Source: a virus. Taken from it: DNA of 49,586 nucleotides. Location of the stretch: UHGV virus genome UHGV-0212814; one strand, given 5' to 3'. A program made the translations under genes and the position numbers. The notes under the pieces are model-generated. The model was not told the origin of the DNA. It saw only the letters and a list, made by a program, of their open reading frames with translations, and did not search any database. Shown here piece after piece: positions 3,514 to 44,675 of this stretch. The first letter of the stretch is position 1, and every line of letters starts with the position of its first letter.

Positions 3514-4650
3514 ATGCCAAAACGAAAGAAACATCCCAGGCTCCCCAACGGCTACGGCTCCATCCGATACCTTGGCAAGAGCCGGAAGAACCCCTATGCG
3601 GTCCACCCGCCGGCAGACATTGACGGGAACCGGCCTCCGGCCCTCTGTTACGTGGATGACTGGATGAAGGGTTTCATAATCCTCACATCCTACAAGGCAG
3701 GTACCTATACCCCAGGTATGGAGGCCGCCCTGAATCTGCCTAATACCCCCGATACCCTTGATTCCCTGGCAGGGAAAATCATGGCCGATTACAACCGTGT
3801 CAAGGGAATCGAACCTGAGGAACCTGAGAAGACCTTCTCAGCGGTCTACGATGCATTCTATGCCGATAAATTTGCAGAAGGCAATAAATACTCTGCGGCA
3901 ACTAAATATTCAATCAAGGCCGCTTATAAGAACTGTGCATCCCTCTACGGTAAAGTGTTTTCTGCACTCCGTACAAAGGACCTGCAGGATAACCTGGATG
4001 CCTGTGGTCTAAAATATGCCAGCCTGGAACTTATCAGGAATCTGTACAGGCAGATGTATAAATATGCTGACAGTCAAGGGTGGTGCGATAAGGACTATAG
4101 TCAGTATGTTAAAATTAAAAGGGATGACGATGACGAACATGGTGTGCCCTTCTCAGACGCAGACCTGAAAATCCTGTGGGATAACAAAACTGACGAAACT
4201 GCAGAGATGCTTCTCATTATGTGCTATTCCGGATGGCGTATATCAGAATACATTGGCCTTGAAGTCAATCTGCCGGAAAAGTATTTTATGGGTGGAATGA
4301 AAACGGAAGCTGGTAAGGGGCGTATCGTTCCTATCCATTCTGCAATTCTCCCTTTGGTCGGGCGCCGGATGGGAAAGTATGGAAAGCTCCTTCCGTGCAG
4401 CGACAAGGATTTCAGGAAACAAATGGAGGAGCTACTGAACCGGCTCGGAATCCCAGGTGACCCCAAGCATACACCACATGACTGCCGGCATACATTCTCC
4501 ATGTTGTGCGAAAAGTATGAGGTAAAAGAAAACGACCGTAAACGGATGATGGGGCACTCATTCAAAGCCGACATCACCAACAAGGTCTACGGCCACCGCG
4601 ACATGGAAGACCTGAAAAAAGAGATAGAAAAAATAACCGTTGATTTGTGA
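3514..4650 (+). CDS. int: tyrosine site-specific integrase
   Basis: C-terminal HDCRHTFS...MGHS...Y catalytic pattern of phage integrases; 378 aa. Confidence 0.9.
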   Translation: MPKRKKHPRLPNGYGSIRYLGKSRKNPYAVHPPADIDGNRPPALCYVDDWMKGFIILTSYKAGTYTPGMEAALNLPNTPDTLDSLAGKIMADYNRVKGIEPEEPEKTFSAVYDAFYADKFAEGNKYSAATKYSIKAAYKNCASLYGKVFSALRTKDLQDNLDACGLKYASLELIRNLYRQMYKYADSQGWCDKDYSQYVKIKRDDDDEHGVPFSDADLKILWDNKTDETAEMLLIMCYSGWRISEYIGLEVNLPEKYFMGGMKTEAGKGRIVPIHSAILPLVGRRMGKYGKLLPCSDKDFRKQMEELLNRLGIPGDPKHTPHDCRHTFSMLCEKYEVKENDRKRMMGHSFKADITNKVYGHRDMEDLKKEIEKITVDL

Positions 4651-4660: not shown

Positions 4661-4852
4661 ACCAATAAACCCTAATAACGTGGTAGAAAGCGGTAGGAAC
4701 CGGAAGTTTCAAAAATGCCGCAAACCCGCATAAAACCTACCATTTTCACCCCATATCTTATATAAATCCTACCATTCTGAAAACCACTCCGTATTAAAGT
4801 GTCGTTAATATTTATGGCCTAAAAAGTACGGTTTTACAAGGTTTTTCAGTGC

Positions 4853-5568: not shown

Positions 5569-6411
5569 TTACTCTCCTAGTCCTGGCCAGCGCAACGCCC
5601 CATCCTTATCCGGTGTTAGTGTCACAGGCTCCGTGGCCATCTTACCATCCGGCATCAGGTAATAGTAGTTGCCTCCACCGGCCTGCAGTCCCTGAACCAT
5701 AGCCCCATCCGCGCCCAGGTAGTACCAGTCACCTTTGTACTGATACCAGGTATCGGTGACCATGTGGCCGGTGCCGTCAAACCAGTACCACTTGCCATCC
5801 GTATCAAGGTACCAGGAGTTGCGGACCGGCTCACCGGTATTTCCCAGGTAAAAGCTCCAGGCACCGTCCGCATTCTGCTCCCAGCCGGATTTCCTTGGCT
5901 GCTCCGGCTCCTGGATTACATCATCCTGTATGTATCTACGCACACACACCAGCCCCTTACGCCATCCTCCGGACGCCCAGGAATTGTACCGACTCTTACA
6001 GTAGGCCACCAGGTCCTTATAGGACGGCCTGCCGGAACCGTGACCACAGATAATGCCGTTGCCGCAGTACATCTCCACATGGCCTATCCTGAGTGGCCTG
6101 GAAGCATCCGTACCAGCAAACAGTAGCATGTCCCCCGGCCGGAGCCTGGACGTATCCGGGATGCCTTGGGCTATGTCCGCATCCACGGTGGTCAGCTTTT
6201 TGGACTGGTAGATGCCTGCGGTGTTAAGATTTCCGAATCCCATTCCTACCGCCTCATAGGTAAGGCAGATGGAGCTGCTGCAGTCACTGTAGTAATTACC
6301 ATCCTTATATCGTACATAGCAGTAATCCCTCAGGGACTGGCTGTATATGTTACGGCCTATAATCTCTGCGTACTTATCAATTACGGCCTGTCTCCTTAAT
6401 AATGCTGTCAT
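5569..6411 (-). CDS. endolysin: NlpC/P60-like cysteine peptidase plus C-terminal cell-wall-binding repeats
   Basis: Cys...His...His pattern (CLTYEAVG, IGHVEMYCGNG) and YG/W-rich repeats (GWEQNADGAW, WYLDTDGKWYW, WYQYKGDWYYL). The track ORF runs to a TTG at 6480; the ATG at 6411 has RBS TGGAGGAAAG and is preferred. Confidence 0.75.
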   Translation of the reverse strand: MTALLRRQAVIDKYAEIIGRNIYSQSLRDYCYVRYKDGNYYSDCSSSICLTYEAVGMGFGNLNTAGIYQSKKLTTVDADIAQGIPDTSRLRPGDMLLFAGTDASRPLRIGHVEMYCGNGIICGHGSGRPSYKDLVAYCKSRYNSWASGGWRKGLVCVRRYIQDDVIQEPEQPRKSGWEQNADGAWSFYLGNTGEPVRNSWYLDTDGKWYWFDGTGHMVTDTWYQYKGDWYYLGADGAMVQGLQAGGGNYYYLMPDGKMATEPVTLTPDKDGALRWPGLGE

Positions 6412-6480
6412 ATCTTTCCTCCAATCCAAATAAGGCCCAGGGATATCCCCAGGCCTGCCCACATTGTTGCGATATCGCAA

Positions 6481-15459: not shown

Positions 15460-16110
15460 TTATGGCATTGTCAATACCTGGCCGGTATTAATTTTATTTG
15501 GGTTGCTTATCTTATCCAGGTTGAGGTTATGGATTTCCTTCCACCTGCCCCCATCCCCAAGCTGCTTCTTTGCTATGTTCCAGAGGCAGTCACCGCCTTG
15601 TACGGTATAGGTCCTGGCCTGTGGCTGCTCCGCCGGCCGGTCATCCTGTGGCGTTTCAGCGGTTGGGGTGGGCTGGTCCTCAACGATAGTGAAGTTCATG
15701 ACCTTTGTCCCGTAATGCCTGGCCTCCTTCATGGTGATGGAGATTACCAGGTCCAGGCCTTCCTTCACATCATCCGATACCTTGTAATCCTCCAGGGTCA
15801 CGTCCATGTTGGTGTCGAAGGAATCACGGATGACGATGAACTCAAAGGAGCCTCTGCTGTCCTTCAGGTCCTGCAGATGGCTTATGAAGTCCTCCGCATC
15901 GTCCACGCTCCCATCCCAGACAGCACTTGGATAGTCCATCTGGGGCAGGATTATGTCCAGGCTGATTTCCGCAAGGCCCGGAGGCCGTAGGAGGTTGATT
16001 TCATCCCCGTTTATCAGCGTGACCGTCTTGTTCTGGCCGGGATACTTGATGGGTATCTTTTGGGGTGGGACTGGGAGGAGCATGTCATCTATGTATACCT
16101 CATATGCCAT
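15460..16110 (-). CDS. LysM-domain tail protein (XkdP-like)
   Basis: C-terminal LysM: YTVQGGDCLWNIAKKQLGDGGRWKEIHNLN...INTGQVLTMP. Confidence 0.8.
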   Translation of the reverse strand: MAYEVYIDDMLLPVPPQKIPIKYPGQNKTVTLINGDEINLLRPPGLAEISLDIILPQMDYPSAVWDGSVDDAEDFISHLQDLKDSRGSFEFIVIRDSFDTNMDVTLEDYKVSDDVKEGLDLVISITMKEARHYGTKVMNFTIVEDQPTPTAETPQDDRPAEQPQARTYTVQGGDCLWNIAKKQLGDGGRWKEIHNLNLDKISNPNKINTGQVLTMP

Positions 16111-18713
16111 CAGATATGCCCTCCTTCCGCGGCGGCCGCCAGGAACTCACTGGTGAACATGGACAGCGCCCGGCCCATGTCATCAAAGTCGGTCTTCTTG
16201 GTCAGGGTGTTGTTGTTCTTGACATCCACCTTTAACTCAGCCAGGGTGAACCGGTTGATGATTTCCTGCTCCGCAGCATCACGCATGTATTTTAAGTCCT
16301 CGTCCATTATGTCCATTGAATCCTTTATGGCTGCAGTATTGGCGGCAGTGCTTCCAGTGTTACCAGCTATTTCCGGGCCTACACCACCGGAATAATAATT
16401 TTCCTCGGCTGTATTCTTAGCGTTCTTCTTTTCTTCTGCCTCCGCCTTCGCTGCAGCAATCCTACGTTCCCGCTCCTTCTGGCTTTGGTTGGCCTCGTAC
16501 TGCATCCAATACAAATTCTGTGCTCTGGCCTTCTTGTCAGCCAGATTCTGGTTCTGCAATGTTGCAAGGTCTGCGGCTCTCTGTTTTTGCTTTGCTTCCT
16601 CTTCCAACGCCGCGCCGGTTGCAAATTCGACGTGTGAAATTACCTCAATGGAAGTTCCCGCGATACTATTGGTCAGCTCAATTAGTCTGTTGATTCGGTC
16701 AATCGCACCATTTATAAAATCCTGCAGGATTGTCAGACCGGCCACCTTTAGGTTTCCAAGGGTGTTTAGTACGCCTGTTCTGAATGCGGCAAAGCCATAC
16801 TGCATGTTGTCTATGCCGTTTTGGATGCCGTTCCACGTGGTCACGAATCCGATTCGTAGCTTATCAGCCCAGGTAAGGACAGAGTTTACTACCGTCAGCC
16901 AGGCCACCTTAATCCCGCCTACGTGATGAATCCATACCAAGATAGCCGCTATGACTGCCATGATAGCGATTACTATCCATGTTAATGGACAGGCTAATAA
17001 AGCCATATTCAATCCATTTTGTGCTCCTGCGGCTGTCGCTGTAGCGGCTGCCTCCGCTAAATCTGCACTTGTTTTTAAAGCTGCCCTTGCCGCCGCAATA
17101 GCTTTTAATCCGTTACTAACTGCCTGTACAGTATTATAAGCAATTACAACTCCCTTATAAGCAATCAAAGCGGCTGCAACACCTCCTATAACAGGTCCAA
17201 GCCATGACCAGTTATCACGTATGAATCCAGCTGCGCCCACCATCGATTCAATCACTTGTCCAACGATAGGTATGATATCACTTAAGACTCCTGCAAAACC
17301 CATCACTGCTGTTTCCGCAGCTGGCATATTGGCATTTACAGTGGCAAAAAACTGCATCATAGCCGGATAGAGCCTAGCCCCCACAGTCTCCTTGATGTCC
17401 CCCCAGGTATTTGCCATCTGTTGAATCTGGCCTTGCGGTGTATTCGCCATGATGGCATTCATGTTGCTCACGTTGTTCGTAACTACCTCCGCAAGGGTGG
17501 CCGCACGCTCCTGCTCATTTCCATACTTTAATATCTTCTCCTGGGCGGCATCGAACGTGACGCCTACCCTCGTAAGCGCTCCGACCTGTCCCTGCATGAC
17601 CTTTCCCATCATGTTACCAATATTGACAGCATCCTGTGTACTTACGTTAACACCATTCTGCTGCACAGCCAGGTTGTTCATAGCAGGTATCAGTGTGTTT
17701 AAGGCATCTGTTGAGTTAAGGAATGTAGCCAATTGTTGAGCGCCTGAAAGCTGCACCTCATCCCCAACAACACCAAGTGCCTGCTGGGCCGCTGTGAGTT
17801 CCTTTACGGATTGTATATCAGCTGGACTTGCTCCCATGCGCTGACTCATGATGGCTCCCAGTTTCGTCTCGGCCTCGCTTTGCACGTTTTGAAGCGAAGT
17901 CGTGTCACTGACGAAATTAACTGCCATCTTGATTCCCTGGACACCCGTATACATTCCTACTAACTGCTTTATGCGGCTCCCCAAGCCATCATAAGCATTT
18001 CCACCGTTTCTGACTGATTGATTAAACTGCTCCTGGGCTGTTATGTTATCCCTTATGTTCCTTTCCGCAGTGGACACGGCAGAATTAAGCTGTTGGTATG
18101 CCTTATTCGCGGCACTGATATCCATACGAGACATGGCATTGTTTAACTCATCCTGTATGGATACAGCCTGGCCCAGTTGTCCCCTCAATGTTTCCAACTG
18201 ATTATTGGTCTGTTCGGTCCGCAAATTTACTGGGATATTATTTAATTCCTGGACTCGCATCGATACGGCCTGTATTCGGTTCTGTAAGGCTGCCATGTCA
18301 TTCAGCATACCCGGAGGGATTACTGACATCCTATTTGCCTGTGATGATATCGCCTGCTGGGTCTGATACAACTTCTGCGCCATCTGATTGGCTGACTGAT
18401 ATTCGGCCGCAAACCTGTCTGCCCCAGAGCTTGTAAATACTTTAGGTTCTGATGTCTGTGCCCAAGAGGGTTCTGGCACACTTACCGGCTTGTTTTGTAC
18501 GCGTTCCAGTTCTTCCTGGTATTGCGCTACTGCTACGGATGCACTATTTACCTGCTGTACTGTTGCTTCCCATTGGGCTGTATTGATTGCTGTCTCGCTG
18601 GCCGTCTGTGCAGCTCCAAAACTGCTTACCATCATATTCATGGCAGTAGTAATGGAGGATAGAACTGGTGACATCCTATCGTCTATTTGGATAGATGTTG
18701 ATATAGCAGACAT
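16110..18713 (-). CDS. tail tape-measure protein
   Basis: 867 aa; extensive coiled-coil; hydrophobic TM-like block (residues about 560-600); RBS AGGAAAGGAG. Confidence 0.9.
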   Translation of the reverse strand: MSAISTSIQIDDRMSPVLSSITTAMNMMVSSFGAAQTASETAINTAQWEATVQQVNSASVAVAQYQEELERVQNKPVSVPEPSWAQTSEPKVFTSSGADRFAAEYQSANQMAQKLYQTQQAISSQANRMSVIPPGMLNDMAALQNRIQAVSMRVQELNNIPVNLRTEQTNNQLETLRGQLGQAVSIQDELNNAMSRMDISAANKAYQQLNSAVSTAERNIRDNITAQEQFNQSVRNGGNAYDGLGSRIKQLVGMYTGVQGIKMAVNFVSDTTSLQNVQSEAETKLGAIMSQRMGASPADIQSVKELTAAQQALGVVGDEVQLSGAQQLATFLNSTDALNTLIPAMNNLAVQQNGVNVSTQDAVNIGNMMGKVMQGQVGALTRVGVTFDAAQEKILKYGNEQERAATLAEVVTNNVSNMNAIMANTPQGQIQQMANTWGDIKETVGARLYPAMMQFFATVNANMPAAETAVMGFAGVLSDIIPIVGQVIESMVGAAGFIRDNWSWLGPVIGGVAAALIAYKGVVIAYNTVQAVSNGLKAIAAARAALKTSADLAEAAATATAAGAQNGLNMALLACPLTWIVIAIMAVIAAILVWIHHVGGIKVAWLTVVNSVLTWADKLRIGFVTTWNGIQNGIDNMQYGFAAFRTGVLNTLGNLKVAGLTILQDFINGAIDRINRLIELTNSIAGTSIEVISHVEFATGAALEEEAKQKQRAADLATLQNQNLADKKARAQNLYWMQYEANQSQKERERRIAAAKAEAEEKKNAKNTAEENYYSGGVGPEIAGNTGSTAANTAAIKDSMDIMDEDLKYMRDAAEQEIINRFTLAELKVDVKNNNTLTKKTDFDDMGRALSMFTSEFLAAAAEGGHI

Positions 18714-18744
18714 GCGTCACTCTCCTTTCCTAAAAATTTGTATA

Positions 18745-18769
18745 AAAAGAACGCCCCGAAGGACGTTCT
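18745..18769 (-). terminator. intrinsic terminator after the mini-CRISPR array
   Basis: GAACGTCC-TTCG-GGGCGTTC stem followed by TTTTTAT on the minus strand; coordinates +/-1. Confidence 0.5.
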
Positions 18770-18777
18770 GATTATTG

Positions 18778-18941
18778 TTGCATTCTACGCTCCCCGAATA
18801 GGGAGCGACTGGGAGATGCCGGAGCAATTTAGTCACTTGCAGGATTTCAATCCACGCCCCCAAATAGGGAGCGACGATATCAACCTTGAGAATTTTTGAT
18901 AATTTTACTATTTCAATCCACGCCCCCAAATAGGGAGCGAC
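18778..18941 (-). CRISPR. mini-CRISPR array: three 32-nt type I-C-like repeats, two 34-nt spacers
   Basis: minus-strand repeat GTCGCTCCCTATTTGGGGGCGTGGATTGAAAT at 18910-18941 and 18844-18875; degenerate terminal copy at 18778-18809; spacers at 18876-18909 and 18810-18843; leader side with TATAAT promoter at high coordinates. Confidence 0.8.
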
Positions 18942-18965
18942 CGCAAGTATTGCTACTTGCAACTA

Positions 18966-18994
18966 CTATTATACTACATTTTGTGCTATCGCAA
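18966..18994 (-). promoter_or_regulatory. leader promoter for the mini-array (TTGCGA-15-TATAAT)
   Basis: consensus -10 hexamer about 26 nt upstream of the first repeat on the minus strand; coordinates approximate. Confidence 0.5.
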
Positions 18995-19034
18995 CACATA
19001 CTACGCATAACTTCCTTTTTGGGGTAGAAAAACT

Positions 19035-19092
19035 GGTGCGAATGCTTTAGCAGTATCATGTCAGCTTGACATTCGCACCGGCCCCTTTTTTA
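19035..19092. terminator. bidirectional intrinsic terminator (GGTGCGAATG...CATTCGCACC)
   Basis: 10-bp stem flanked by a T-run on both strands; ends the Bro-N operon on the minus strand. Confidence 0.55.
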
Positions 19093-19209
19093 CTGCGTCT
19101 TATGTGTTTCCAACTGCTCCCGCAAGGCCATCAGTTCCTTGATTGTATCATCATAACTTTTCAACATCTTCTCATACTGTTCCACGGGGATGATTATTAA
19201 TTTCTGCAT
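19090..19209 (-). CDS. 39-aa hypothetical protein (MQKLIIIPVEQYEKMLKSYDDTIKELMALREQLETHKTQ)
   Basis: RBS GAAGGAGG 7 nt upstream; stop codon lies inside the terminator. Confidence 0.35.
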   Translation of the reverse strand: MQKLIIIPVEQYEKMLKSYDDTIKELMALREQLETHKTQ

Positions 19210-19367
19210 ACCGCGGCCTCCTTCTTTCCATCTTCCAAGCCAGCATAATATGCCCGATTGATTTTGATTGCTATGGCCTTGAATAATTCTCTGTCGCTTT
19301 CATCTGGGTTTTTCAAATCTGCAGCCTTACAATCTGCATATGCTTCTACGTCCACTGGATATGTCAT
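19197..19367 (-). CDS. 56-aa hypothetical protein
   Basis: ATGA overlap with the Bro-N stop (translational coupling); GGAGGTG upstream. Confidence 0.35.
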   Translation of the reverse strand: MTYPVDVEAYADCKAADLKNPDESDRELFKAIAIKINRAYYAGLEDGKKEAAVCRN

Positions 19368-19945
19368 GAGCATGCCACCTCCCCACTTTTACCAAAGGTC
19401 ATTGCCAATTGCTCATACGCAGGAATCCGTATAACATAATCCGGCACATTAATGCCAGCCTGGAGGAATATATCTCGTACTGCCATTGCAATTTCGTGGG
19501 GAGGAATACCCTCACTTTTCATAATACGCTCAAAGAGACGGCCCGCATTTGTTGCACTCTCAATAGCTGCCGCCGATACTGGGTACTGACAAGTAGTGGT
19601 CACGGAATATGTACCGGTTTTGTGGAGGGCGGGAAGAACTTCGTCTGTAACCCAATCAGAAAATGCTTCAGCATTTGGCTTACGGCTTTTAAAAATCAAC
19701 TTGAATACGCCGCTTTCGGTAAGAAAATTTTCACCAGCATTGTTCAACTTTCGGATGTGAACATTAGTCACATCCGGATTTTTAAGTTTTCGCACCTGCC
19801 TGCCATTCATATGAGATACAGCCTTCCTAACCGCCTCATCGCTAAGCTCCAAACATTCACCCACATGATATGGGTTAAAGTATACTCGTCCGTCTAATTC
19901 AAATGCTTCTACCTCATGTCCATTAAAAATCATTAATTCCTGCAT
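19364..19945 (-). CDS. Bro-N domain protein (antirepressor-like)
   Basis: N-terminal IFNGHEVEAFELDGRVYFNPYHVGECLELS, typical of the Bro-N/KilA-N family; RBS GAAAGGAG. Confidence 0.65.
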   Translation of the reverse strand: MQELMIFNGHEVEAFELDGRVYFNPYHVGECLELSDEAVRKAVSHMNGRQVRKLKNPDVTNVHIRKLNNAGENFLTESGVFKLIFKSRKPNAEAFSDWVTDEVLPALHKTGTYSVTTTCQYPVSAAAIESATNAGRLFERIMKSEGIPPHEIAMAVRDIFLQAGINVPDYVIRIPAYEQLAMTFGKSGEVACS

Positions 19946-20059
19946 AACCTTTTATCTCCTTTCAAATTTGACAATTCGGAGAAAATAAGGTATAGTAACC
20001 CTAAGGATAGGACATACCCTATTCCCTCATGATTGAGTAAACACACTGCCGACCAAAGC

Positions 20060-20203
20060 TTACTGTGTTTGCTCTTTTTTTGTTTCTAAATCCTTTTGAA
20101 TCAAATCAATCACATACTGCATAAATGTCTTATCTTGCATAACAGCTTTTATCTTAGCTGTTTTATGCATTTCATCATTCATTTTAATTGTTATCCGTTT
20201 CAT
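20060..20203 (-). CDS. ribbon-helix-helix (CopG/Arc-like) DNA-binding protein
   Basis: 47 aa, MKRITIKMNDEMHKTAKIKAVMQDKTFMQYVIDLIQKDL; RBS AAAGGAGAT; divergent from the XRE gene. Confidence 0.5.
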   Translation of the reverse strand: MKRITIKMNDEMHKTAKIKAVMQDKTFMQYVIDLIQKDLETKKEQTQ

Positions 20204-20332
20204 CCCTATCTCCTTTCCCACAATTTAATTGTATGTATATTGTAGATTATACGCAATTAAATTACGTTCGTCAAGTGAAACTTGAATTAAATTGCGTATT
20301 ATGATACACTCAAAGAAAAAGGGGCGATTAAT
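20204..20332. promoter_or_regulatory. divergent promoter/operator region with three AATTnAATT sites
   Basis: ACAATTTAATTGT palindrome, plus GCAATTAAATT and its inverted copy. Confidence 0.45.
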
Positions 20333-20797
20333 ATGGCAAGTAATAAAACCATTGGAAACAACATAAAATCATATCGTCAAAAAAAAGGTATTACACAAAA
20401 ACAATTGGCTTCTCTTATTGGAAAAACTGAAAGTTCAATACAAAAATACGAAGCTGGCAAAGTTGAAATTCCTAAAAATGTACTTATTAAAATAGCCAAG
20501 CAATTGGACTGTTCCTTCTTACAACTAAATGGTATTAATGCTGATGACTTTCTTCCTCGGCTAAAAGAAGCAAACACTGATCCTGTATTAGTATTTTTAG
20601 ATTCTATAGGATATAAAGTTTCTGTTGGCGATACTGGAGGGGTTTTTATCGAAATATTTGATGAGGAAATCCCGCTAATGAGAAAACAGTATAATATCCT
20701 AAAAGAACAAATAATTTCATACGCAAAATTTGCTACCGAACGAACTCTCTATCCTCCTATTATGGAGCCTTGCGATGATTCACCCGCCACCGAGTAG
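20333..20797 (+). CDS. XRE-family HTH regulator with C-terminal extension
   Basis: ITQKQLASLIGKTESSIQKYEAG HTH_3 motif; 154 aa. Confidence 0.75.
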   Translation: MASNKTIGNNIKSYRQKKGITQKQLASLIGKTESSIQKYEAGKVEIPKNVLIKIAKQLDCSFLQLNGINADDFLPRLKEANTDPVLVFLDSIGYKVSVGDTGGVFIEIFDEEIPLMRKQYNILKEQIISYAKFATERTLYPPIMEPCDDSPATE

Positions 20798-20825
20798 ATG
20801 GCTTTTTCTGCATTATAAAAGCACC

Positions 20826-20856
20826 TGGATTCCTCCGGGTGCTTTTGTCCCTATAA
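20826..20856. terminator. bidirectional terminator between the convergent XRE gene and the SHOCT gene
   Basis: GCACCTGG-attcct-CCGGGTGC hairpin with T-runs on both sides. Confidence 0.5.
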
Positions 20857-21600
20857 ACCTAAAAGCTGTCTCTTCTTATCATCATATTCTTCTTGTGTGA
20901 TAGCCCCTGCGTCAAGAAGATTTTTATATTTTAAAATCTCATCAGCTGGTGATACTTCCGTGTTATTGCAGCCCTCAGTACTTTTTTCTATACCTCCCAT
21001 ATCACTTAATCCTAACATTATCTTCTCAGCCTTTTCACAGTAAGACTTAAATAGTATTGAATCAGATTTTACTTTTCCGGTAGGTAACAAATTTATGCTT
21101 AACTGAGGATACGAATTATTATAAAGATTAACAATAATTTTAAATTCATTTATTTCTTCTTTCTGTTTAGAGCCCGATAATCCTCCCAGAATCGCACCGA
21201 CGCCGCCAAATAGTAATCCTCCTACCAAAGCGCTTCCTACACCTACGGACAAAACACCCGTACCATTTTTTTGACATTCATAGTTAATAATATCATCAAA
21301 TGTGAAATATAAATTCCCATATGATTTTAGTTTCCACAGCCTATTTTGTTCATCAATAAAAAGTTCTTTTTCAATAACTTTAGTTTGATGAAATATTCTA
21401 CTTCTTTGTTGATTTATTTCATTATCATTAATAGCATCTTTTACTCTTTTTAGAGATATATCTTTCCATGCAAGTGTGATTAAACAAACTCCGCATTTAG
21501 CGATACATTCCTTACAAACATATCCATCTGCTATCTGCTTAACACCTTTCTGCCCACCACATATAGAACAGTTTTCCTTATTCCCCCCAAACAATCCCAT
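20851..21600 (-). CDS. MGLFG-headed zinc-ribbon / glycine-zipper TM / SHOCT-domain protein
   Basis: CSICGG...CKECIAKCG zinc ribbon; VGVGSALVGGLLFGGVGAILGGLSG TM; C-terminal SHOCT-like YKNLLDAGAITQEEYDDKKRQLLGL; ATG at 21600 with RBS GGAGGTAGG (the track ORF starts 2 codons earlier at a TTG). Confidence 0.7.
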   Translation of the reverse strand: MGLFGGNKENCSICGGQKGVKQIADGYVCKECIAKCGVCLITLAWKDISLKRVKDAINDNEINQQRSRIFHQTKVIEKELFIDEQNRLWKLKSYGNLYFTFDDIINYECQKNGTGVLSVGVGSALVGGLLFGGVGAILGGLSGSKQKEEINEFKIIVNLYNNSYPQLSINLLPTGKVKSDSILFKSYCEKAEKIMLGLSDMGGIEKSTEGCNNTEVSPADEILKYKNLLDAGAITQEEYDDKKRQLLGL

Positions 21601-21692
21601 TCTCAATACCTACCTCCGCGCCATAATAATCTATCCTTATTATAGCGTGGATTGGAAACTATTTCTACCTTTTCCTCCGGGTGCTTTACTCC
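21601..21692 (-). repeat. duplicated 5' leader (copy 1) upstream of the SHOCT gene
   Basis: about 60-nt near-identity with 22107-22191; minus-strand reading contains CGCTATAAT. Confidence 0.5.
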
Positions 21693-22106
21693 TTAAATTT
21701 CATAGCTTGATGATTGTTGATTTTCAGCTATCTTAGTTCTTATTTTCATCATCTTACTTGTTTCACTTGACACTCCCCAAAAATCAATATGCTTACTATC
21801 CCCATTCTTATCCAAGTAATTAATAACGTAATAGTGCTTAGGTATAGACTTGCATTTAGTCGTTGTTATATTCGTTCCTTTGTATTTCGCCATATATTGA
21901 TTTTCCTGCATGAAGATATCAATACTCAAAACTCTCTGCCTATCCAATCTAGCTTCAACTAATGGATTTGCTTTAGTTAGTAAGATTGCGTCATCTGTCA
22001 ATTGCAAACTACATGGAAAATTACAGACAAATCCCGGTAAATCCCCATCATAGAATTGCACAGTAACCTTTTCTGGTATCTTCTCTTTCTTCCCAAACAG
22101 TCCCAT
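21693..22106 (-). CDS. MGLFG-headed paralog B (hypothetical, beta-rich)
   Basis: about 45% identity with paralog A; identical first 11 residues MGLFGKKEKIP; shared YYVINYLDKNGD and SYEI end; the track ORF extends to 22202. Confidence 0.65.
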   Translation of the reverse strand: MGLFGKKEKIPEKVTVQFYDGDLPGFVCNFPCSLQLTDDAILLTKANPLVEARLDRQRVLSIDIFMQENQYMAKYKGTNITTTKCKSIPKHYYVINYLDKNGDSKHIDFWGVSSETSKMMKIRTKIAENQQSSSYEI

Positions 22107-22191
22107 AACATCCCCTCCACACCATAATAATCTATCCTTATTATAGCGTGGATTGGAAGTTATTTCTACCTTTTTCTCCCATACTCTACTG
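22107..22191 (-). repeat. duplicated 5' leader (copy 2) upstream of paralog B
   Basis: CCATAATAATCTATCCTTATTATAGCGTGGATTGGAA..TATTTCTACCTTTT core shared with copy 1. Confidence 0.5.
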
Positions 22192-22602
22192 CTAAATTTC
22201 ATAACTTTTTGACTTTTGTTTATTAGTCAATTCGTCCCTCAATCTCATCACTTTTAATGCTGATGACGATGCACTCCAAAAAACGATTTGTTTCTTATCC
22301 CCATTCTTATCTAAATAGTTTATGACATAATATGACGTCGGAATATCGCCCTTTCTAAAACCGCTTTCAGCGTTCCCTTTATACCTTTGCATATAATCAT
22401 TTTTACCAAGGACTTCCACAGACAATATCCGGTTTCTGTCAAGTCTCACCTCCGTGTATGGATTATTTTTAGTGATGCGCAGACAATCCTCCATTAATAA
22501 TATCTGGCAAGGCTGATTAACAGGAAACTCATTCAGCTCCCCCTCGTAATACATAACTCTTATCCCATCTGGTATCTTCTCTTTCTTCCCAAACAGTCCC
22601 AT
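22192..22602 (-). CDS. MGLFG-headed paralog A (hypothetical)
   Basis: 136 aa; RBS GGTGGAGGGG; a TATAAT lies about 30 nt upstream. Confidence 0.7.
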   Translation of the reverse strand: MGLFGKKEKIPDGIRVMYYEGELNEFPVNQPCQILLMEDCLRITKNNPYTEVRLDRNRILSVEVLGKNDYMQRYKGNAESGFRKGDIPTSYYVINYLDKNGDKKQIVFWSASSSALKVMRLRDELTNKQKSKSYEI

Positions 22603-22661
22603 AACATCCCCTCCACCTTTGCTTAATCTGGGAATATTATACCATCTCTTCTTTTCATATT

Positions 22662-22829
22662 CTACCGTTTCTTTCCCTTTTTCAGTCTCTGCGCTTCTTT
22701 TTTATCCCTTTCCAGCTTCATTTCAACCGCCGCCATCACATAAGCCTGTTCATCAATATCAAGGGCCAAGAACTCATGTGGCCACTTATGGAGTTTATGG
22801 AGGCAATAGTAGGCCACATTTGCCTCCAT
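22662..22829 (-). CDS. 55-aa protein downstream of the tail chaperone
   Basis: RBS GAAGGAGG 4 nt upstream; MEANVAYYCLHKLHKWPHEF...; may be the second (T-like) chaperone partner. Confidence 0.4.
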   Translation of the reverse strand: MEANVAYYCLHKLHKWPHEFLALDIDEQAYVMAAVEMKLERDKKEAQRLKKGKKR

Positions 22830-22843
22830 ATCGCCTCCTTCAA

Positions 22844-23275
22844 TTAGTTTTTTGCCTCATCCACCTTTTCCTGCATGGTCCTATCAAACCCATGGTACTC
22901 CTGCAGCTGGCCCATAAAAGCATTGTATTCCCCAGGGTCATCCAGCATCTCCACTATCAGCTGCTCCGCACCCATTACACCGTAAGAGTCCTGAAGTTCC
23001 TTATCATTCAGGTTTGGATATACCACACATGCAGCTGCCATCTTAGCCAGGTAACGATTGGCGTAAAACTTTGGCCGGTACATTCCTGGCTTTCCCGTCA
23101 CCTGTATATCCACGGTACAATCATCCCGCAGTGCATTATCCTCTTTTGTAGACAGCGGCCGGATTTCCCACATCATCGGTTTACCATTCTCGTCCAAAAA
23201 GGAGGCCGTTGCTGCAATCTTTAAATTCTCCTTAGTTCTCTTATTCTTCTTTAAAAATCTGCTCAAATCTCCCAT
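22844..23275 (-). CDS. XkdN-like tail assembly chaperone
   Basis: 143 aa immediately after the tail tube gene, as in PBSX-type myophages. Confidence 0.7.
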   Translation of the reverse strand: MGDLSRFLKKNKRTKENLKIAATASFLDENGKPMMWEIRPLSTKEDNALRDDCTVDIQVTGKPGMYRPKFYANRYLAKMAAACVVYPNLNDKELQDSYGVMGAEQLIVEMLDDPGEYNAFMGQLQEYHGFDRTMQEKVDEAKN

Positions 23276-23295: not shown

Positions 23296-23769
23296 TTACT
23301 GCATTCCCGGAATATCAGCAAAGGCTTCCGGCATTTCAAATCCTTCGAAGGTGAAATCAAACTCATCCTCCAGGTATTCCGCATCTGCATCAAATCTTGC
23401 CAAGACCAGATTGTCTATATTGCAATCCGTCAGGATGATTGTCTGCCGCCCCACGCTGGACGATGGATCTTCGTTCGTCACTTGTATGTCAAAATATACG
23501 TCTTTCCCTGTGTTCTGGAACCTATACATCAATTCCCTAAAACGGCTCGTATTATAATGGAATGTTGCGGAACCGGACCCCTTCAGGCCGATGGCCTTGT
23601 TGCCTTTCATCATGCGACCAAGTATTGGAACCTCTGTTTTTACCTTTTCAAGCTTTGCCTCCAGGTTTAGCGCCTGCATGAACAGGAACCGTTCATTATC
23701 AATTGTAATGAAACACTCTGCCTTCGTTGCGCTGATTGCCTCCCATGCATTCATGGTTATATCATTCAT
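23296..23769 (-). CDS. tail tube protein (XkdM-like)
   Basis: 157 aa following the sheath gene. Confidence 0.8.
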   Translation of the reverse strand: MNDITMNAWEAISATKAECFITIDNERFLFMQALNLEAKLEKVKTEVPILGRMMKGNKAIGLKGSGSATFHYNTSRFRELMYRFQNTGKDVYFDIQVTNEDPSSSVGRQTIILTDCNIDNLVLARFDADAEYLEDEFDFTFEGFEMPEAFADIPGMQ

Positions 23770-42299: not shown

Positions 42300-42470
42300 T
42301 ATTTTATCGACTTTTTCCCTCATAGGGAAATTCTCGGTAATTTTCGGGTTTTTCACTTTAAAAGGGAAAGGGAAATTTATCGAAGTTTTCCTTGTAAGGG
42401 AAATTGTTTCCCTTCGATTTTTTCCTTCACAGGGATATGACTTCCCTCCGTGTTTTTCCTTCTACTTTTT
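42300..42470. repeat. iteron array: 4-5 copies of about 34-nt AGGGAAAtT...CGA(A/T)NTTTTCCTT
   Basis: tandem units at about 42325, 42363, 42397 and 42431; flanked by hairpin GGCGGGC-N9-GCCCGCC (42192-42214) and palindrome TACCCCCTTTAGGGGGTA (42253-42270); adjacent to the primase gene. Confidence 0.6.
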
Positions 42471-44675
42471 ACCCACATTCCCCTCATCAATCCAGAATCC
42501 TCCATGCTCCTTTATCCGGTTCCGGACTGTTTTTTCGGTCGTCCCCATGCTCTCCGCAAGTTCCTTCACGGTCACTTTTCCATCCTGATTAAAACTTTTT
42601 AAGGACTCATACTGCTCTTCCAGGCTATCCATCCGGTCCTTCTTTGCCTGCTCCGGCGTCCGTTTCTTCTTGAAATTCTTCTGCCAGCCGGGACTATCTG
42701 CTTCTGGCTGTATGTCCCCCAGGACGCCTACGGTGTCCACTCTGTGGCACGGGTAATCAAACCATAGGTTGACTGCAGGGAACTTCGGGAACTCCCTCAG
42801 TGTCCCCTCGATGCGCCAGGCCGTCACGGCCCTGGCCCTTGTCTTAGCGGCCTCCACGATGCGCTGCAGGGCCTCCCACTGCCACTTATCAAGATTCTCC
42901 TCACAGTATTTAAGCATCTGGTAACTGCTACATAAATCATCGTCTGACAGGTCATCCTCCCATTTGAAATGGGCATCCAGGTACTGCCTGCAGACCGCGC
43001 ACACCGCCTTGTCCTCCCCGGCCTTCAGCACATCCTCAGACAGTTCCAGCTCTATCATATCCAGCATGGCATCCGGGTCGCGGGCAAACACACCGGAACC
43101 GGATGCCCGGTCCATGGCCTTCTTCCCGCCCTGGCCGCCCTTACTGTGATGATGGCAGTAGATGACCGCCACGCCCAGCTCCGTGCAGACCTTATCGAAC
43201 TGGTTACAGAAATTGGCCATCTGGTCCGCGCTGTTCTCGTCACCGGTGATGACCTTATAGATGGGGTCAATCACGATGGCTATGTAGTTCTTCTTGGCGG
43301 CCCTGCGTATGAGCATCGGCGCCAGTTTGTCCATGGGCCTGGACTTCCCACGCAGGTTCCAGATATCGATGTTCCTGAGGTTATCAGGCTTATATCCCAG
43401 GGACTGGTATACGTCCCTGAAACGGTGCAGGCAGCTTGCCCGGTCCAGCTCCAGGTTCACGTACATGACCCGCCCCTGGGTACACTTCCATCCCAGCCAC
43501 TCACGCCCCTCGGCGATTGCGATGCACATCTCAATCTGCAGGAAGGACTTACCGGCCTTGGACGGCCCGGCTATGAGCATCTTATGGCCCTGGCGGAGCA
43601 CGCCATCAATTAGGCATGGTGCCAGTTCCGGGAGGTCATCCCAGACATCCTCCAGGCTCTCCGGGTCCGGCAGGTCATCATTGACGGACTCAATCCATTC
43701 CTTCCACTCGGCCCAGTTCGCTTTCCCGATATTGGTATCCATCAGGAACTGCTTATGTCCCCCGCGGATGATGCCTGGCATCCTGGACAGCCTGGAAGGG
43801 TTCTTATTCTGCGGGTCTATCTCAAGGCCGTTCTTTTTGCAGATGGTATATAGGTAGTCCACGCGCTTCTTATATTCCATGAAGTCAGCCGCATCCACCC
43901 GCACGATGGCGTGCAGGCTCTTCTTCCCGCTATGGACCAGGCATGCCACCGGAAGTTCAAGTTCCCTTATGATGGCGTGCTGCTTCTCAATGTCCATCCC
44001 ATCCGACTCCACCAGGGAGTAGCGGTAGTCAGCCACGTTCCTGTCCTTGACATCCATCCCATCCATAGGGTTGAAACGTATCCAGGCCCCTGCCTTCGGG
44101 TTGTAATCCCCCAGCACGCTTCCGATATCACCGTTGCAGCTGGACAATGCCTCAATCAGTTGGCCAGCCGTGCGGTCGTAAGCGCCTCTGTCTGCCGGGA
44201 TCCACTTCTCATCCTTCTTCCAGCTCTTTACCACATATCCGACATTCTCCCCGGCTTCGAACAGGGTCTCCAGATAAGTGATGAGCTGTTTCACTGGGTC
44301 CCAGCTGTCCGGTTCCTTCACGTCACGGCCTTCCACCCAGTCCGTATCCACGATGATGCCATCCGATGAGATGGTATCGTCCCAGTCCAGGGCCTGGCCC
44401 GGGTCATGGGACGGGGTCCATCCCTGCTCCCTGGCATACTGTACGATGGTGCCTCCCGTCACCGGCGTTCCATGACCGTGGAAACCATTCCATTTTTTCT
44501 GGCATTCCCCAGGATGATACCTGCCGGGGTCTTTCTGGCTCCAGGCATCCCATATATCCACGCCATAGCCCTCCTGGTCCAGGGCCATGCCGACATTCAG
44601 CCATTGCTGGTAATCCAGCCCCGCCGGCTCTATGCTGTTCAAGACCTCCAACAGGTCATACTGGTTATTGTCCAT
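42462..44675 (-). CDS. replicative primase/helicase (primase-polymerase-like N-term, RecA/AAA_25 ATPase, C-terminal HTH)
   Basis: Walker A IAGPSKAGKSF; Walker B VIDPIY; 737 aa; origin iterons immediately downstream. Confidence 0.75.
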   Translation of the reverse strand: MDNNQYDLLEVLNSIEPAGLDYQQWLNVGMALDQEGYGVDIWDAWSQKDPGRYHPGECQKKWNGFHGHGTPVTGGTIVQYAREQGWTPSHDPGQALDWDDTISSDGIIVDTDWVEGRDVKEPDSWDPVKQLITYLETLFEAGENVGYVVKSWKKDEKWIPADRGAYDRTAGQLIEALSSCNGDIGSVLGDYNPKAGAWIRFNPMDGMDVKDRNVADYRYSLVESDGMDIEKQHAIIRELELPVACLVHSGKKSLHAIVRVDAADFMEYKKRVDYLYTICKKNGLEIDPQNKNPSRLSRMPGIIRGGHKQFLMDTNIGKANWAEWKEWIESVNDDLPDPESLEDVWDDLPELAPCLIDGVLRQGHKMLIAGPSKAGKSFLQIEMCIAIAEGREWLGWKCTQGRVMYVNLELDRASCLHRFRDVYQSLGYKPDNLRNIDIWNLRGKSRPMDKLAPMLIRRAAKKNYIAIVIDPIYKVITGDENSADQMANFCNQFDKVCTELGVAVIYCHHHSKGGQGGKKAMDRASGSGVFARDPDAMLDMIELELSEDVLKAGEDKAVCAVCRQYLDAHFKWEDDLSDDDLCSSYQMLKYCEENLDKWQWEALQRIVEAAKTRARAVTAWRIEGTLREFPKFPAVNLWFDYPCHRVDTVGVLGDIQPEADSPGWQKNFKKKRTPEQAKKDRMDSLEEQYESLKSFNQDGKVTVKELAESMGTTEKTVRNRIKEHGGFWIDEGNVGKK

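What the first reader, a model, noticed from the sequence alone, without database searches (positions are those of the whole stretch)
18778..18941. Solitary mini-CRISPR array (type I-C-like repeats) with its own promoter and terminator inside a tail-gene island
There are two perfect 32-nt repeats and one degenerate terminal repeat. Read on the minus strand the repeat is GTCGCTCCCTATTTGGGGGCGTGGATTGAAAT, which matches the type I-C repeat family (GTCGC...GTGGATTGAAAT). Two 34-nt spacers separate them. The degenerate repeat lies at the low-coordinate (trailer) end. A consensus TATAAT promoter lies about 26 nt upstream of the first repeat, and a strong intrinsic terminator follows the last repeat. 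There are no cas genes within 49 kb, so the array would depend on a host I-C system. Virus-borne mini-arrays of this kind are known to target competing mobile elements.
Basis: partly seen in the sequence, partly recalled or inferred. Interest (0 to 1): 0.8.

Follow-up and report, generated by a model that had tools for sequence, protein, structure and literature searches.

The report
Phage-borne type I-C mini-CRISPR array
A temperate phage of the human-gut bacterium Enterocloster carries a real two-spacer CRISPR array without cas genes, and both spacers match close sibling phages, one of which carries a spacer against this phage; this kind of element is already known.

Summary
On the minus strand, 18941-18777 holds two identical 32-nt repeats, two 34-nt spacers and a degenerate 33-nt terminal repeat. 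An intrinsic terminator follows.

The repeat belongs to the type I-C class. It has a 7-bp hairpin and an 11-nt 3' handle, and it differs by one loop base from long native arrays. The cassette also carries a complete I-C-type leader.

The window is a whole temperate myovirus-like phage of Enterocloster. I found no cas genes in it. An IMG/VR relative shows the empty site: same terminator, no leader, no array.

Sibling phages carry array alleles at the same site with different leader-end spacers. Seven of the eight distinct spacers match sibling phages, five next to TTC and two next to TTT, the known I-C PAMs.
- Window spacer 1 matches a sibling's HTH regulator gene 34/34.
- Window spacer 2 matches relatives' tail-tube gene with 1-3 mismatches.
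- A spacer of the E. hominis prophage matches the window 37/37 at 22720-22756, so targeting is reciprocal.

I could not verify that the hosts carry I-C cas genes or a native array with this repeat. Expression and interference were not tested.

Verdict: a well-supported new member of the known class of virus-borne mini-CRISPR arrays used in conflicts between viruses.

The parts
19036..19078 (-). Distal leader element, GTGCGAA-N29-TTCGCAC (43 nt), 137 nt upstream of R1. It marks the start of the captured cassette.
   Evidence: The same fixed-length element starts 0-15 nt after the cas2 stop codon in 35 of 42 native I-C loci. It is absent from the array-less relative L131.
18942..19035 (-). Proximal leader. 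It holds a -35-like TTGCGA (18994-18989), TATAAT (18973-18968) and the leader-repeat junction CTTGCG (18947-18942).
   Evidence: Read directly from the sequence. It is identical in the window, L125 and the E. hominis-type alleles, and L141 has one substitution. TTGC occupies -5..-2 in 24 of 44 native I-C leaders, with G at -3 in 41 of 44. The promoter scan did not call this site.
18910..18941 (-). Repeat 1 (leader-proximal), GTCGCTCCCTATTTGGGGGCGTGGATTGAAAT.
   Evidence: It folds into a 7-bp hairpin followed by an 11-nt single-stranded tail, at -13.1 kcal/mol.
18876..18909 (-). Spacer 1, AGTAAAATTATCAAAAATTCTCAAGGTTGATATC.
   Evidence: Matches 34/34 in sibling phage L141 (5361-5394, minus strand). 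The site is inside that phage's allele-specific HTH regulator gene, with 5' flank TTT. It has no other copy in the window. It is absent from allele L002 and replaced by another spacer in L125.
18844..18875 (-). Repeat 2, identical to repeat 1.
18810..18843 (-). Spacer 2 (trailer-proximal, shared by the window-type alleles and L125), CCTGCAAGTGACTAAATTGCTCCGGCATCTCCCA.
   Evidence: Matches the 3' end of the tail-tube gene in 10 IMG/VR relatives (33/34 or 32/34) and in E. hominis-type prophages (31/34), always next to TTC.
18777..18809 (-). Degenerate terminal repeat, GTCGCTCCCTATTCGGGGAGCGTAGAATGCAAC. The hairpin half is intact and the handle half is decayed.
   Evidence: It folds into an 8-bp hairpin at -14.4 kcal/mol. 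By inference from established I-C processing, only the hairpin half is needed to mature the spacer 2 crRNA.
18743..18769 (-). Intrinsic terminator (stem-loop 18769-18748 plus T run), ancestral to the site.
   Evidence: The same sequence directly follows the 39-aa ORF in the array-less relative L131.
22717..22756 (+). Protospacer in the window (22720-22756) with TTC PAM (22717-22719). It is targeted by spacer 1 of the E. hominis prophage's mini-array.
   Evidence: Matches 37/37. It lies in the 55-aa ORF 22662-22829(-) just downstream of the tail assembly chaperone gene.
23307..23340 (+). The window's own homologue of the spacer 2 target, at the 3' end of the tail-tube gene. It has diverged, so the array does not target its own phage.
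   Evidence: 14 of 34 positions differ from spacer 2.

Best explanation
**What it is.** A complete type I-C CRISPR leader plus a short array was captured from a bacterial CRISPR locus. It sits in a temperate Enterocloster phage between a small accessory operon and the tape-measure gene.

**How it most likely works (inferred).**
1. In a lysogen, or early in infection, the array is transcribed from its leader.
2. The host's I-C Cas5 endoribonuclease (Cas5d) cuts at the base of each repeat hairpin. This yields two crRNAs, each with an 11-nt 5' handle, a 34-nt guide and a 3' hairpin.
3. Host Cascade and Cas3 then destroy incoming or co-resident sibling phages that carry the matching TTC/TTT-flanked protospacers.
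4. Spacer 1 is aimed at the HTH regulator allele of one sibling lineage. Spacer 2 is aimed at the tail-tube allele of another.
5. The phage itself is spared because its own alleles have diverged.
6. The host's Cas1-Cas2-Cas4 can add new spacers at the leader end of the phage-borne array. That would explain why siblings differ in their leader-end spacers.

**Shown here:** the anatomy, I-C class membership of the repeat and leader, the insertion relative to an empty site, allelic spacer turnover, protospacer matches with I-C PAMs, and reciprocal targeting.

**Inferred only:** transcription, processing, interference, and that the hosts actually carry a compatible I-C system.
For: **Array and repeat class.**
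- Array confirmed.
- The repeat folds as an I-C-type hairpin plus an 11-nt tail.
- It is one loop base away from the repeat of long native arrays.
- Native arrays of this class sit beside a cas5-cas8c-cas7-cas4-cas1-cas2 operon whose Cas1 a source names 'type I-C Cas1c'.

**Leader.**
- The TTGC junction motif matches native leaders.
- The 43-nt post-cas2 element occurs in 35 of 42 native loci and at the start of the phage cassette.

**Insertion.** L131 shows the empty site.

**Array alleles at the same site.**
- Window type: spacer 1 + spacer 2.
- L002: spacer 2 only.
- L125: a new spacer + spacer 2.
- E. hominis type: two other spacers.
- L141: three other spacers.

**Protospacers.**
- Seven of eight distinct spacers have protospacers in sibling phages. 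Five are perfect matches (win_sp1, L125_sp1, L041_sp1, L041_sp2, L141_sp1), win_sp2 has 1-3 mismatches and L141_sp2 has 3 or more.
- PAMs are TTC for five spacers and TTT for two. The chance probability is about 1e-10.
- TTC is the canonical and TTT the alternative I-C PAM, and I-C spacers are 33-37 nt (PMC5602111).

**Reciprocal targeting.** The E. hominis prophage spacer matches window 22720-22756 at 37/37 next to TTC.

**No self-targeting.**

**Host.** Enterocloster: L. pacaense isolate GCA_020709765.1 and E. hominis. A type I-C system is reported on the chromosome of E. clostridioformis LM41 (PMC11318856).

**Known class.**
Against: - No native array with the identical repeat was found in any GTDB species representative. 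The nearest native arrays are in unrelated Clostridia. The E. hominis lysogen genome has no second locus of this repeat subclass.
- I could not show I-C cas genes in the actual host genomes.
- The promoter has a poorly spaced -35 and was not called by the scan.
- Spacer 2's best targets carry 1-3 mismatches. These lie outside the seed, at positions 14, 17 and 23.
- Two PAMs are TTT rather than TTC.
- There are no expression or interference data.
- Most sibling loci were fetched as +/-6-10 kb around the array. Where protospacers could be seen is therefore biased.
Confidence: 0.78

Rival explanations
1. **RNA decoy (Racr-like anti-CRISPR).** The repeat RNAs soak up host Cas5 and Cas7 proteins and blunt the host's I-C immunity against the phage itself. 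On this reading the spacers are incidental.
For: A solitary I-C repeat from a prophage (RacrIC1) inhibits I-C immunity (PMC10651486). The array sits in an accessory island next to small unannotated ORFs. No native array with the same repeat was found.
Against: It is not a solitary repeat. It has a full leader and canonical spacer lengths. Seven of eight spacers across alleles match rival phages next to I-C PAMs, and the leader-end spacers turn over. A decoy needs none of these. The two roles are not mutually exclusive.
Confidence: 0.1
2. **Inert relic.** A fragment of a bacterial CRISPR locus was picked up by recombination and is carried passively, with no function in current hosts.
For: There are no cas genes in cis. 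Host cas genes are unverified. The terminal repeat is degenerate. The promoter was not called by the scan.
Against: R1 and R2 are identical to each other. The leader is identical in most alleles and has one substitution in L141. The hairpin is kept in all four repeat variants. Spacer content differs between very close siblings (99% identity outside the island). The spacers match current sibling phages perfectly, with PAMs. This points to recent, Cas-dependent acquisition rather than decay.
Confidence: 0.07
3. **Regulatory mini-array (crRNA-like RNA).** A partially complementary guide directs host Cascade to repress host cas or defence genes.
For: Phage and prophage mini-arrays of this regulatory kind have been described (bioRxiv 10.1101/2023.03.03.530964; a further preprint listed).
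Against: The spacers here match phage structural and regulator genes over their full length. They are not partial matches to promoters. I could not test for matches to host cas promoters because no host cas locus was in hand.
Confidence: 0.03

Closest known systems
Virus-borne mini-CRISPR arrays involved in interviral conflicts. The validated example is the archaeal portoglobovirus pair SPV1/SPV2 (Medvedeva et al. 2019, PMC6858448). Bacterial prophage mini-arrays were surveyed by Faure et al. 2019, as summarised in PMC7099407 and PMC11656645.
   Same: - One or two spacers on a viral genome without cas genes.
- Spacers aimed at closely related viruses of the same host.
- Mutual targeting between siblings.
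- Carried by temperate or non-lytic viruses.
   Different: - This is type I-C, in a phage of a human-gut Lachnospiraceae genus.
- Identity of the repeat to a host array, which is part of the published description, could not be shown.
- Several array alleles at one conserved site point to repeated leader-end acquisition within the phage lineage.
- The whole native-type leader is retained.
Native type I-C CRISPR arrays of Bacillota, for example the loci L048, L042 and L017 fetched here, and the experimentally studied Legionella pneumophila I-C system (PMC5602111).
   Same: - Repeat architecture: GTCGC, a hairpin, then GTGGATTGAAAT.
- Spacers of 33-37 nt.
- TTC or TTT PAM.
- The TTGC leader-repeat junction.
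- The 43-nt element that follows cas2 in native loci.
   Different: - No adjacent cas operon.
- Only two spacers.
- The distal leader element lies 137 nt from R1, against 157-185 nt in native loci.
- It is located inside a phage.
RacrIC1 and other solitary repeat units (RNA anti-CRISPRs, PMC10651486).
   Same: A phage-encoded copy of a type I-C repeat that depends on host Cas proteins binding it.
   Different: Racrs are single repeats without spacers or a leader, and they inhibit immunity. This is a leader-driven array with targeting spacers.

Membership tests
CRISPR array of the type I-C repeat class | Two or more near-identical direct repeats of about 32 nt, separated by unique spacers of similar length. 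| tested here: met
   Two identical 32-nt repeats plus a degenerate third, with 34-nt spacers that are unique in the window.
CRISPR array of the type I-C repeat class | Repeat with 5' GTCGC, an internal hairpin, and a 3' GTGGATTGAAAT tail that gives the 11-nt crRNA handle. | tested here: met
   The fold shows a 7-bp stem and an 11-nt tail. The repeat is one loop base away from long native arrays. A native array of the class lies next to a cas5-cas8c-cas7-cas4-cas1-cas2 operon whose Cas1 is named Cas1c. No Rfam family matched.
CRISPR array of the type I-C repeat class | A leader of the I-C kind upstream of the first repeat. | tested here: met
   The leader ends CTTGCG next to GTCGC, and TTGC is found in 24 of 44 native leaders. 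The 43-nt GTGCGAA-N29-TTCGCAC element is present in 35 of 42 native loci and in the phage cassette.
CRISPR array of the type I-C repeat class | Protospacers flanked by the I-C PAM, 5'-TTC (TTT as the alternative). | tested here: met
   All seven mapped spacers of the phage-borne alleles qualify: five with TTC and two with TTT, p about 1e-10. PAM hierarchy from PMC5602111.
CRISPR array of the type I-C repeat class | Cognate cas genes adjacent to the array. | tested here: not met
   No cas domain in any ORF I scanned, which include most of the large ones; the head and baseplate genes rest on Pfam annotation of a near-identical contig. It is an orphan array by construction.
CRISPR array of the type I-C repeat class | Transcription and Cas5 endoribonuclease (Cas5d) processing into crRNAs. 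| not testable with these tools
   Only sequence signals are available: TATAAT at 18973-18968, intact hairpins and a terminator.
Virus-borne mini-CRISPR array for interviral conflict | Located on a viral genome that lacks cas genes and carries one or two spacers. | tested here: met
   The window is a complete temperate phage with integrase, repressor, lysin, tail, head, terminase and replication modules. It has two spacers.
Virus-borne mini-CRISPR array for interviral conflict | Spacers target closely related viruses, not the carrier. | tested here: met
   Spacer 1 matches L141, which is 99% identical to the window outside the island. Spacer 2 matches relatives at about 80% identity and the E. 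hominis prophage. There is no self match. A sibling spacer matches the window in return.
Virus-borne mini-CRISPR array for interviral conflict | Repeats identical to those of the host's own CRISPR-Cas locus. | tested here: inconclusive
   No identical native repeat was found in 185,579 GTDB species representatives. The nearest, one mismatch away, are in non-Enterocloster Clostridia. The E. hominis lysogen has no second locus of this subclass. The scan pattern fixed part of the loop, and strains other than the representatives were not searched.
Virus-borne mini-CRISPR array for interviral conflict | The host encodes a compatible CRISPR-Cas system. | not tested
   The only support is a published statement that E. 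clostridioformis LM41 has a chromosomal type I-C system (PMC11318856). Attempts to reach Enterocloster cas loci failed.
RNA anti-CRISPR (Racr, solitary repeat unit) | A single repeat not associated with other repeats or spacers. | tested here: not met
   Three repeats, two spacers and a leader. There are no further repeat copies in the window.

The most novel reading that the evidence does not exclude
The phage-borne array may be a live, adaptation-competent locus. While the phage sits as a prophage, the host's I-C adaptation machinery would add spacers to the phage's own leader. A family of near-identical gut prophages would then carry different 'immunity alleles' aimed at each other's variable genes.

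Several observations are compatible with this.
- All mapped protospacers lie on one strand and near the array, which fits primed acquisition.
- L125 carries spacer 2 and also an own tube-gene allele with a mutated PAM (TCC) and 5 mismatches. That looks like escape from self-targeting after recombination.

The array would then act as a heritable, updatable superinfection-exclusion module of the phage, additional to repressor immunity. It may use a phage-specific repeat variant not found in any native array.
Probability: 0.4. Interest if true: 0.6.

Novelty: new member of a known kind. Interest (0 to 1): 0.5.

Why it matters
Mini-CRISPR arrays on viruses are known, but the validated example is an archaeal virus pair. 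This is a clean natural case in phages of Enterocloster, a common human-gut genus.

It has several features that make it usable as a test system:
- an empty-site relative;
- at least five array alleles at one locus;
- perfect protospacers with the correct PAMs;
- reciprocal targeting between siblings found in cultured isolates (L. pacaense and E. hominis).

The isolates make the idea directly testable: prophages may use host CRISPR-Cas to exclude close relatives, and such arrays may acquire spacers while on the phage.

It also has a practical consequence. CRISPR-spacer-based host assignment and spacer catalogues from gut metagenomes will include phage-borne spacers that record phage-versus-phage conflict, not host-versus-phage conflict.

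Tried and rejected
- **Rfam**: only chance-level hits, no CRISPR repeat family.
- **INPHARED phages**: no similar phage, array or spacer target.
- **IMG/VR, array-bearing phage**: the exact repeat and the leader are absent. The degenerate repeat pattern gave one unrelated contig, so the array-bearing phages are not in IMG/VR.
- **IMG/VR, spacer targets**: spacer 1 and the L125 spacer had no IMG/VR target. Their targets turned up only in assemblies fetched through the Ant protein.
- **JGI metagenome scan with the leader**: only one contig, L125, though it was an informative one.
- **Host spacers against this phage**: none among the 115 native I-C loci.
- **Native Enterocloster I-C locus.** The Cas1c homologue search gave no Enterocloster names, and cluster look-ups gave no names. 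An abundant human-gut Cas1c locus turned out to have a different repeat, GTCAGCCTCCTTGCGAGGCTGTGAATTGAAAT, and none of its 217 spacers hit the phage family. This line was a dead end.
- **Hairpin at 19079-19035.** I first read it as the terminator of the upstream operon. I rejected that once the same element was found after cas2 in native I-C loci.
- **ORF 18717-18962(-).** This 81-aa ORF overlaps the array and is spurious. A gene caller made a similar spurious call in L140.

Full report
**1. The observation**

Read on the minus strand, the window has two identical 32-nt repeats, GTCGCTCCCTATTTGGGGGCGTGGATTGAAAT, at 18941-18910 and 18875-18844. Two 34-nt spacers lie at 18909-18876 and 18843-18810. 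A degenerate 33-nt third repeat lies at 18809-18777.

- No shuffle of the window gave even one copy of the repeat.
- Both spacers are unique in the window.
- No further repeat copies exist.
- A 9-bp G+C-rich hairpin with a T run follows at 18769-18748.
- TATAAT lies at 18973-18968, 26 nt before the first repeat. Its only -35-like hexamer (TTGCGA) is 15 nt away, and the promoter scan did not call the site.
- Each repeat folds into a 7-bp hairpin followed by an 11-nt single-stranded tail. The degenerate terminal repeat keeps an even better hairpin and has lost only the tail.
- By established type I-C biology, the Cas5 endoribonuclease (Cas5d) cuts at the 3' base of the hairpin. This leaves an 11-nt 5' handle on the next crRNA. 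The hairpin half of the terminal repeat is therefore all that maturation of the second crRNA needs. This step is inferred.

**2. The surroundings**

The window is a complete temperate phage with a PBSX/XkdK-M-N-type contractile tail.

| Module | Window coordinates |
|---|---|
| Repressor and IrrE-like protease | 1436-2496 |
| Integrase | 3514-4650 |
| Choline-binding lysin | 5569-6480 |
| Baseplate and fibres | about 7.8-16 kb |
| Tape measure | 16110-18713 |
| Tube, sheath, head, portal, terminase | 23.3-35 kb |
| Replication genes | 42-49 kb |

Between the tail assembly chaperone gene (22844-23275) and the tape-measure gene lies an accessory island. It holds small ORFs, a DUF4428/SHOCT protein, a divergently oriented HTH_3 regulator (20333-20797), an RHH protein, a Bro-N antirepressor (19364-19945) and two tiny ORFs. 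The array is the last item of this island.

No cas gene turned up in the PHROG, Pfam and PADLOC scans of the ORFs I tested, which include most of the large ones. Pfam annotation of a near-identical contig covers the head and baseplate genes.

**3. Host**

- The Bro-N protein is identical in an isolate of Lachnoclostridium pacaense (GCA_020709765.1) and is assigned to the genus Enterocloster by UniRef.
- A 90%-cluster sibling of that protein belongs to Enterocloster hominis.
- The protein is indexed in 144 blocks of the assembly collection. Many of the records carry metagenome names.

**4. It is an insertion of a whole I-C leader plus array**

An IMG/VR relative, L131, is about 83% identical in this region. 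There the stop codon of the 39-aa ORF is followed directly by the same terminator and then the tape-measure gene, with no leader or array. The terminator is therefore ancestral to the site. The inserted piece is window 19089-18777.

I compared its leader with the leaders of native type I-C arrays fetched from GTDB genomes. Two shared features emerged.

- **Leader-repeat junction.** TTGC occupies positions -5..-2 in 24 of 44 native leaders, with G at -3 in 41 of 44. The phage leader ends CTTGCG next to GTCGC.
- **Distal element.** A fixed-length 43-nt element, GTGCGAA-N29-TTCGCAC, begins 0-15 nt after the cas2 stop codon in 35 of 42 native loci. The phage cassette begins with this same element at 19078-19036.

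The phage thus carries everything that lies between cas2 and the end of an array in a bacterial I-C locus.

The repeat itself is one loop base away from the repeat of long native arrays in several Clostridia. It is four bases from that of a Lachnospiraceae locus with a cas5-cas8c-cas7-cas4-cas1-cas2 operon, whose Cas1 is named type I-C Cas1c by NCBI.

**5. Array alleles**

Contigs fetched through the Bro-N protein and through the leader sequence carry the array at the same site with the same leader and terminator. Their content differs.

| Allele | Where seen | Spacers |
|---|---|---|
| Window type | Window and eight other samples | spacer 1 + spacer 2 |
| L002 | One sample | spacer 2 only |
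| L125 | One sample | a different leader-end spacer + spacer 2 |
| E. hominis type | L041, L138-L140, L145 | two other spacers; repeat variant ...TATTCGGGAGC... |
| L141 | One sample | three other spacers; third repeat variant |

A shared trailer-end spacer with different leader-end spacers is the pattern expected from polarised acquisition. Five assemblies break exactly at the first repeat (L008, L142-L144, L146). That is compatible with array heterogeneity within samples. It could equally be an assembler effect.

**6. What the spacers match**

Seven of the eight distinct spacers have protospacers in sibling phages.

| Spacer | Target | Match | 5' flank |
|---|---|---|---|
| Window spacer 1 | L141, in its HTH regulator gene | 34/34 | TTT |
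| Window spacer 2 | Tail-tube gene 3' end, 10 IMG/VR relatives | 33/34 or 32/34 | TTC |
| Window spacer 2 | Tail-tube gene 3' end, E. hominis-type prophages | 31/34 | TTC |
| L125 leader-end spacer | Tape-measure gene of the E. hominis type | 34/34 | TTC |
| E. hominis spacer 1 | Window 22720-22756 | 37/37 | TTC (22717-22719) |
| E. hominis spacer 2 | IMG/VR relative L136 | 34/34 | TTC |
| L141 spacer 1 | L125 | 35/35 | TTT |
| L141 spacer 2 | Tail-tube gene of several siblings | 3 or more mismatches | TTC |

- The HTH gene hit by spacer 1 lies in the only segment where L141 differs strongly from the window. The two are 99% identical across the head-tail region.
- The mismatches of spacer 2 to its targets are at positions 14, 17 and 23, outside the PAM-proximal seed.
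- TTC and TTT each make up about 2% of trinucleotides in the window. Seven of seven by chance has a probability of about 1e-10.
- In the experimentally studied Legionella type I-C system, TTC is the canonical PAM and TTT the second best, for both acquisition and interference. Native spacers there are 33-37 nt (PMC5602111). Both properties match what is seen here.
- The window does not target itself. Its own homologue of the spacer 2 site differs at 14 of 34 positions.

**7. Mechanism**

The best-supported reading is the known one for virus-borne mini-arrays. The phage supplies guides and the host supplies Cas proteins. The result is destruction of closely related competitors during superinfection or co-infection.

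*Shown here:*
- the anatomy;
- class membership of repeat and leader;
- the insertion;
- the turnover of spacers;
- the matches with correct PAMs;
- the reciprocity of targeting.

*Inferred:*
- transcription, processing and interference;
- that the hosts have a compatible I-C system.

On the last point I have only a paper stating that E. clostridioformis LM41 has a chromosomal type I-C system (PMC11318856). My scan of GTDB species representatives found no native array with the identical repeat. It also found no second locus of this repeat subclass in the E. hominis lysogen. Attempts to reach an Enterocloster cas locus through Cas1c homologues failed.

The natural acquisition of PAM-correct spacers into the phage leader is indirect evidence that some host's I-C adaptation machinery recognises this leader and repeat.

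**8. Rivals**

- **RNA decoy role.** RacrIC1 is a solitary I-C repeat that inhibits I-C immunity (PMC10651486). A decoy role is possible as a side effect. It does not explain the leader, the spacer lengths, the matches or the PAMs.
- **Inert relic.** This is contradicted by the identical R1 and R2, the nearly invariant leader, the preserved hairpins and the recent spacer differences between near-identical phages.
- **Regulatory mini-array.** This reading is unlikely because the spacers match phage genes over their full length.

**9. Comparison with what is known, and novelty**

Viral mini-arrays with one or two spacers against related viruses have been described and modelled. This includes mutual targeting and a bias towards temperate viruses (PMC6858448, PMC7099407, PMC11656645).

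This locus is a new, unusually well-documented member of that class. It is type I-C, in phages of a human-gut Lachnospiraceae genus, with an empty-site relative and several alleles. One defining feature of the published class, repeat identity with the host's own array, could not be confirmed.

Interest is moderate. The case is confirmatory for specialists. It is also directly testable in cultured isolates, and it is relevant to how spacers from gut metagenomes are interpreted.

Noticed in passing
window 19036-19078 (-); native loci such as L090, L042, L017 and L088, just after cas2: A fixed-length 43-nt inverted-repeat element, GTGCGAA-N29-TTCGCAC, with conserved inner AAG..ACAT. It starts 0-15 nt after the cas2 stop codon in 35 of 42 native type I-C loci across Bacillota, and it also starts the phage cassette. 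One arm pair covaries (U-A to C-G in three loci). No Rfam family matched the window copy. I do not know its function; candidates are a protein-binding site, a cas-operon terminator, or a cofactor site for spacer integration.
   Followed up: partly
L125:4733-4766 (+), flank 4730-4732: L125 carries window spacer 2 in its array and also has the sibling-type tail-tube allele. In L125 that site has 5 mismatches, including seed position 5, and the PAM is TCC instead of TTC. This looks like escape from self-targeting after recombination.
   Followed up: partly
Protospacers mapped to window-equivalent positions of about 18-23.4 kb: All seven mapped protospacers lie on the window-plus-equivalent strand and within about 5 kb of the array (tube, chaperone, small ORF, HTH, Bro-N and tape-measure alleles). 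This could reflect strand-biased primed adaptation. The sibling loci were fetched only around the array, so position is ascertainment-biased. The IMG/VR hits came from whole-collection scans.
   Followed up: no
L008, L142, L143, L144, L146 (contig ends): Five independent assemblies end exactly inside the first repeat of the array. This is compatible with several array variants in one sample, or with an assembler breaking at the repeat.
   Followed up: no
window 19090-22829 (-/+): The accessory island between the tail chaperone gene and the tape-measure gene looks like a second immunity-type module: a divergent HTH_3 regulator, an RHH protein and a Bro-N antirepressor, plus a DUF4428/SHOCT protein. 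It is the most variable part between otherwise 99%-identical siblings. L141 has a different HTH gene plus a Cro-like gene there.
   Followed up: partly
window 42386-42462: A 34-nt tandem repeat (2.3 copies, 76% matches) lies immediately after the stop of the PriCT-2/AAA_25 primase-helicase gene (42462-44675, minus strand). It may be a set of origin iterons.
   Followed up: no
L002:11005-12695 compared with window 17185-17627: In L002 the tape-measure gene carries a 443-nt internal duplication, and the gene caller split it into 515-aa and 495-aa genes. In L009 and L141 the gene was called at 757 aa, against 867 aa in the window.
   Followed up: no
L148-L157: A native type I-C locus common in the assembly collection (some records are named human gut metagenome), whose Cas1c is indexed in 131 blocks of the collection. 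Its repeat is GTCAGCCTCCTTGCGAGGCTGTGAATTGAAAT and its arrays reach 67 repeats. None of 217 distinct spacers matches this phage family.
   Followed up: yes
window 18717-18962 (-); L140:4693-4935 (-): An ORF of about 80 aa runs through the array. A gene caller called it as a gene in one public assembly. It is spurious.
   Followed up: yes
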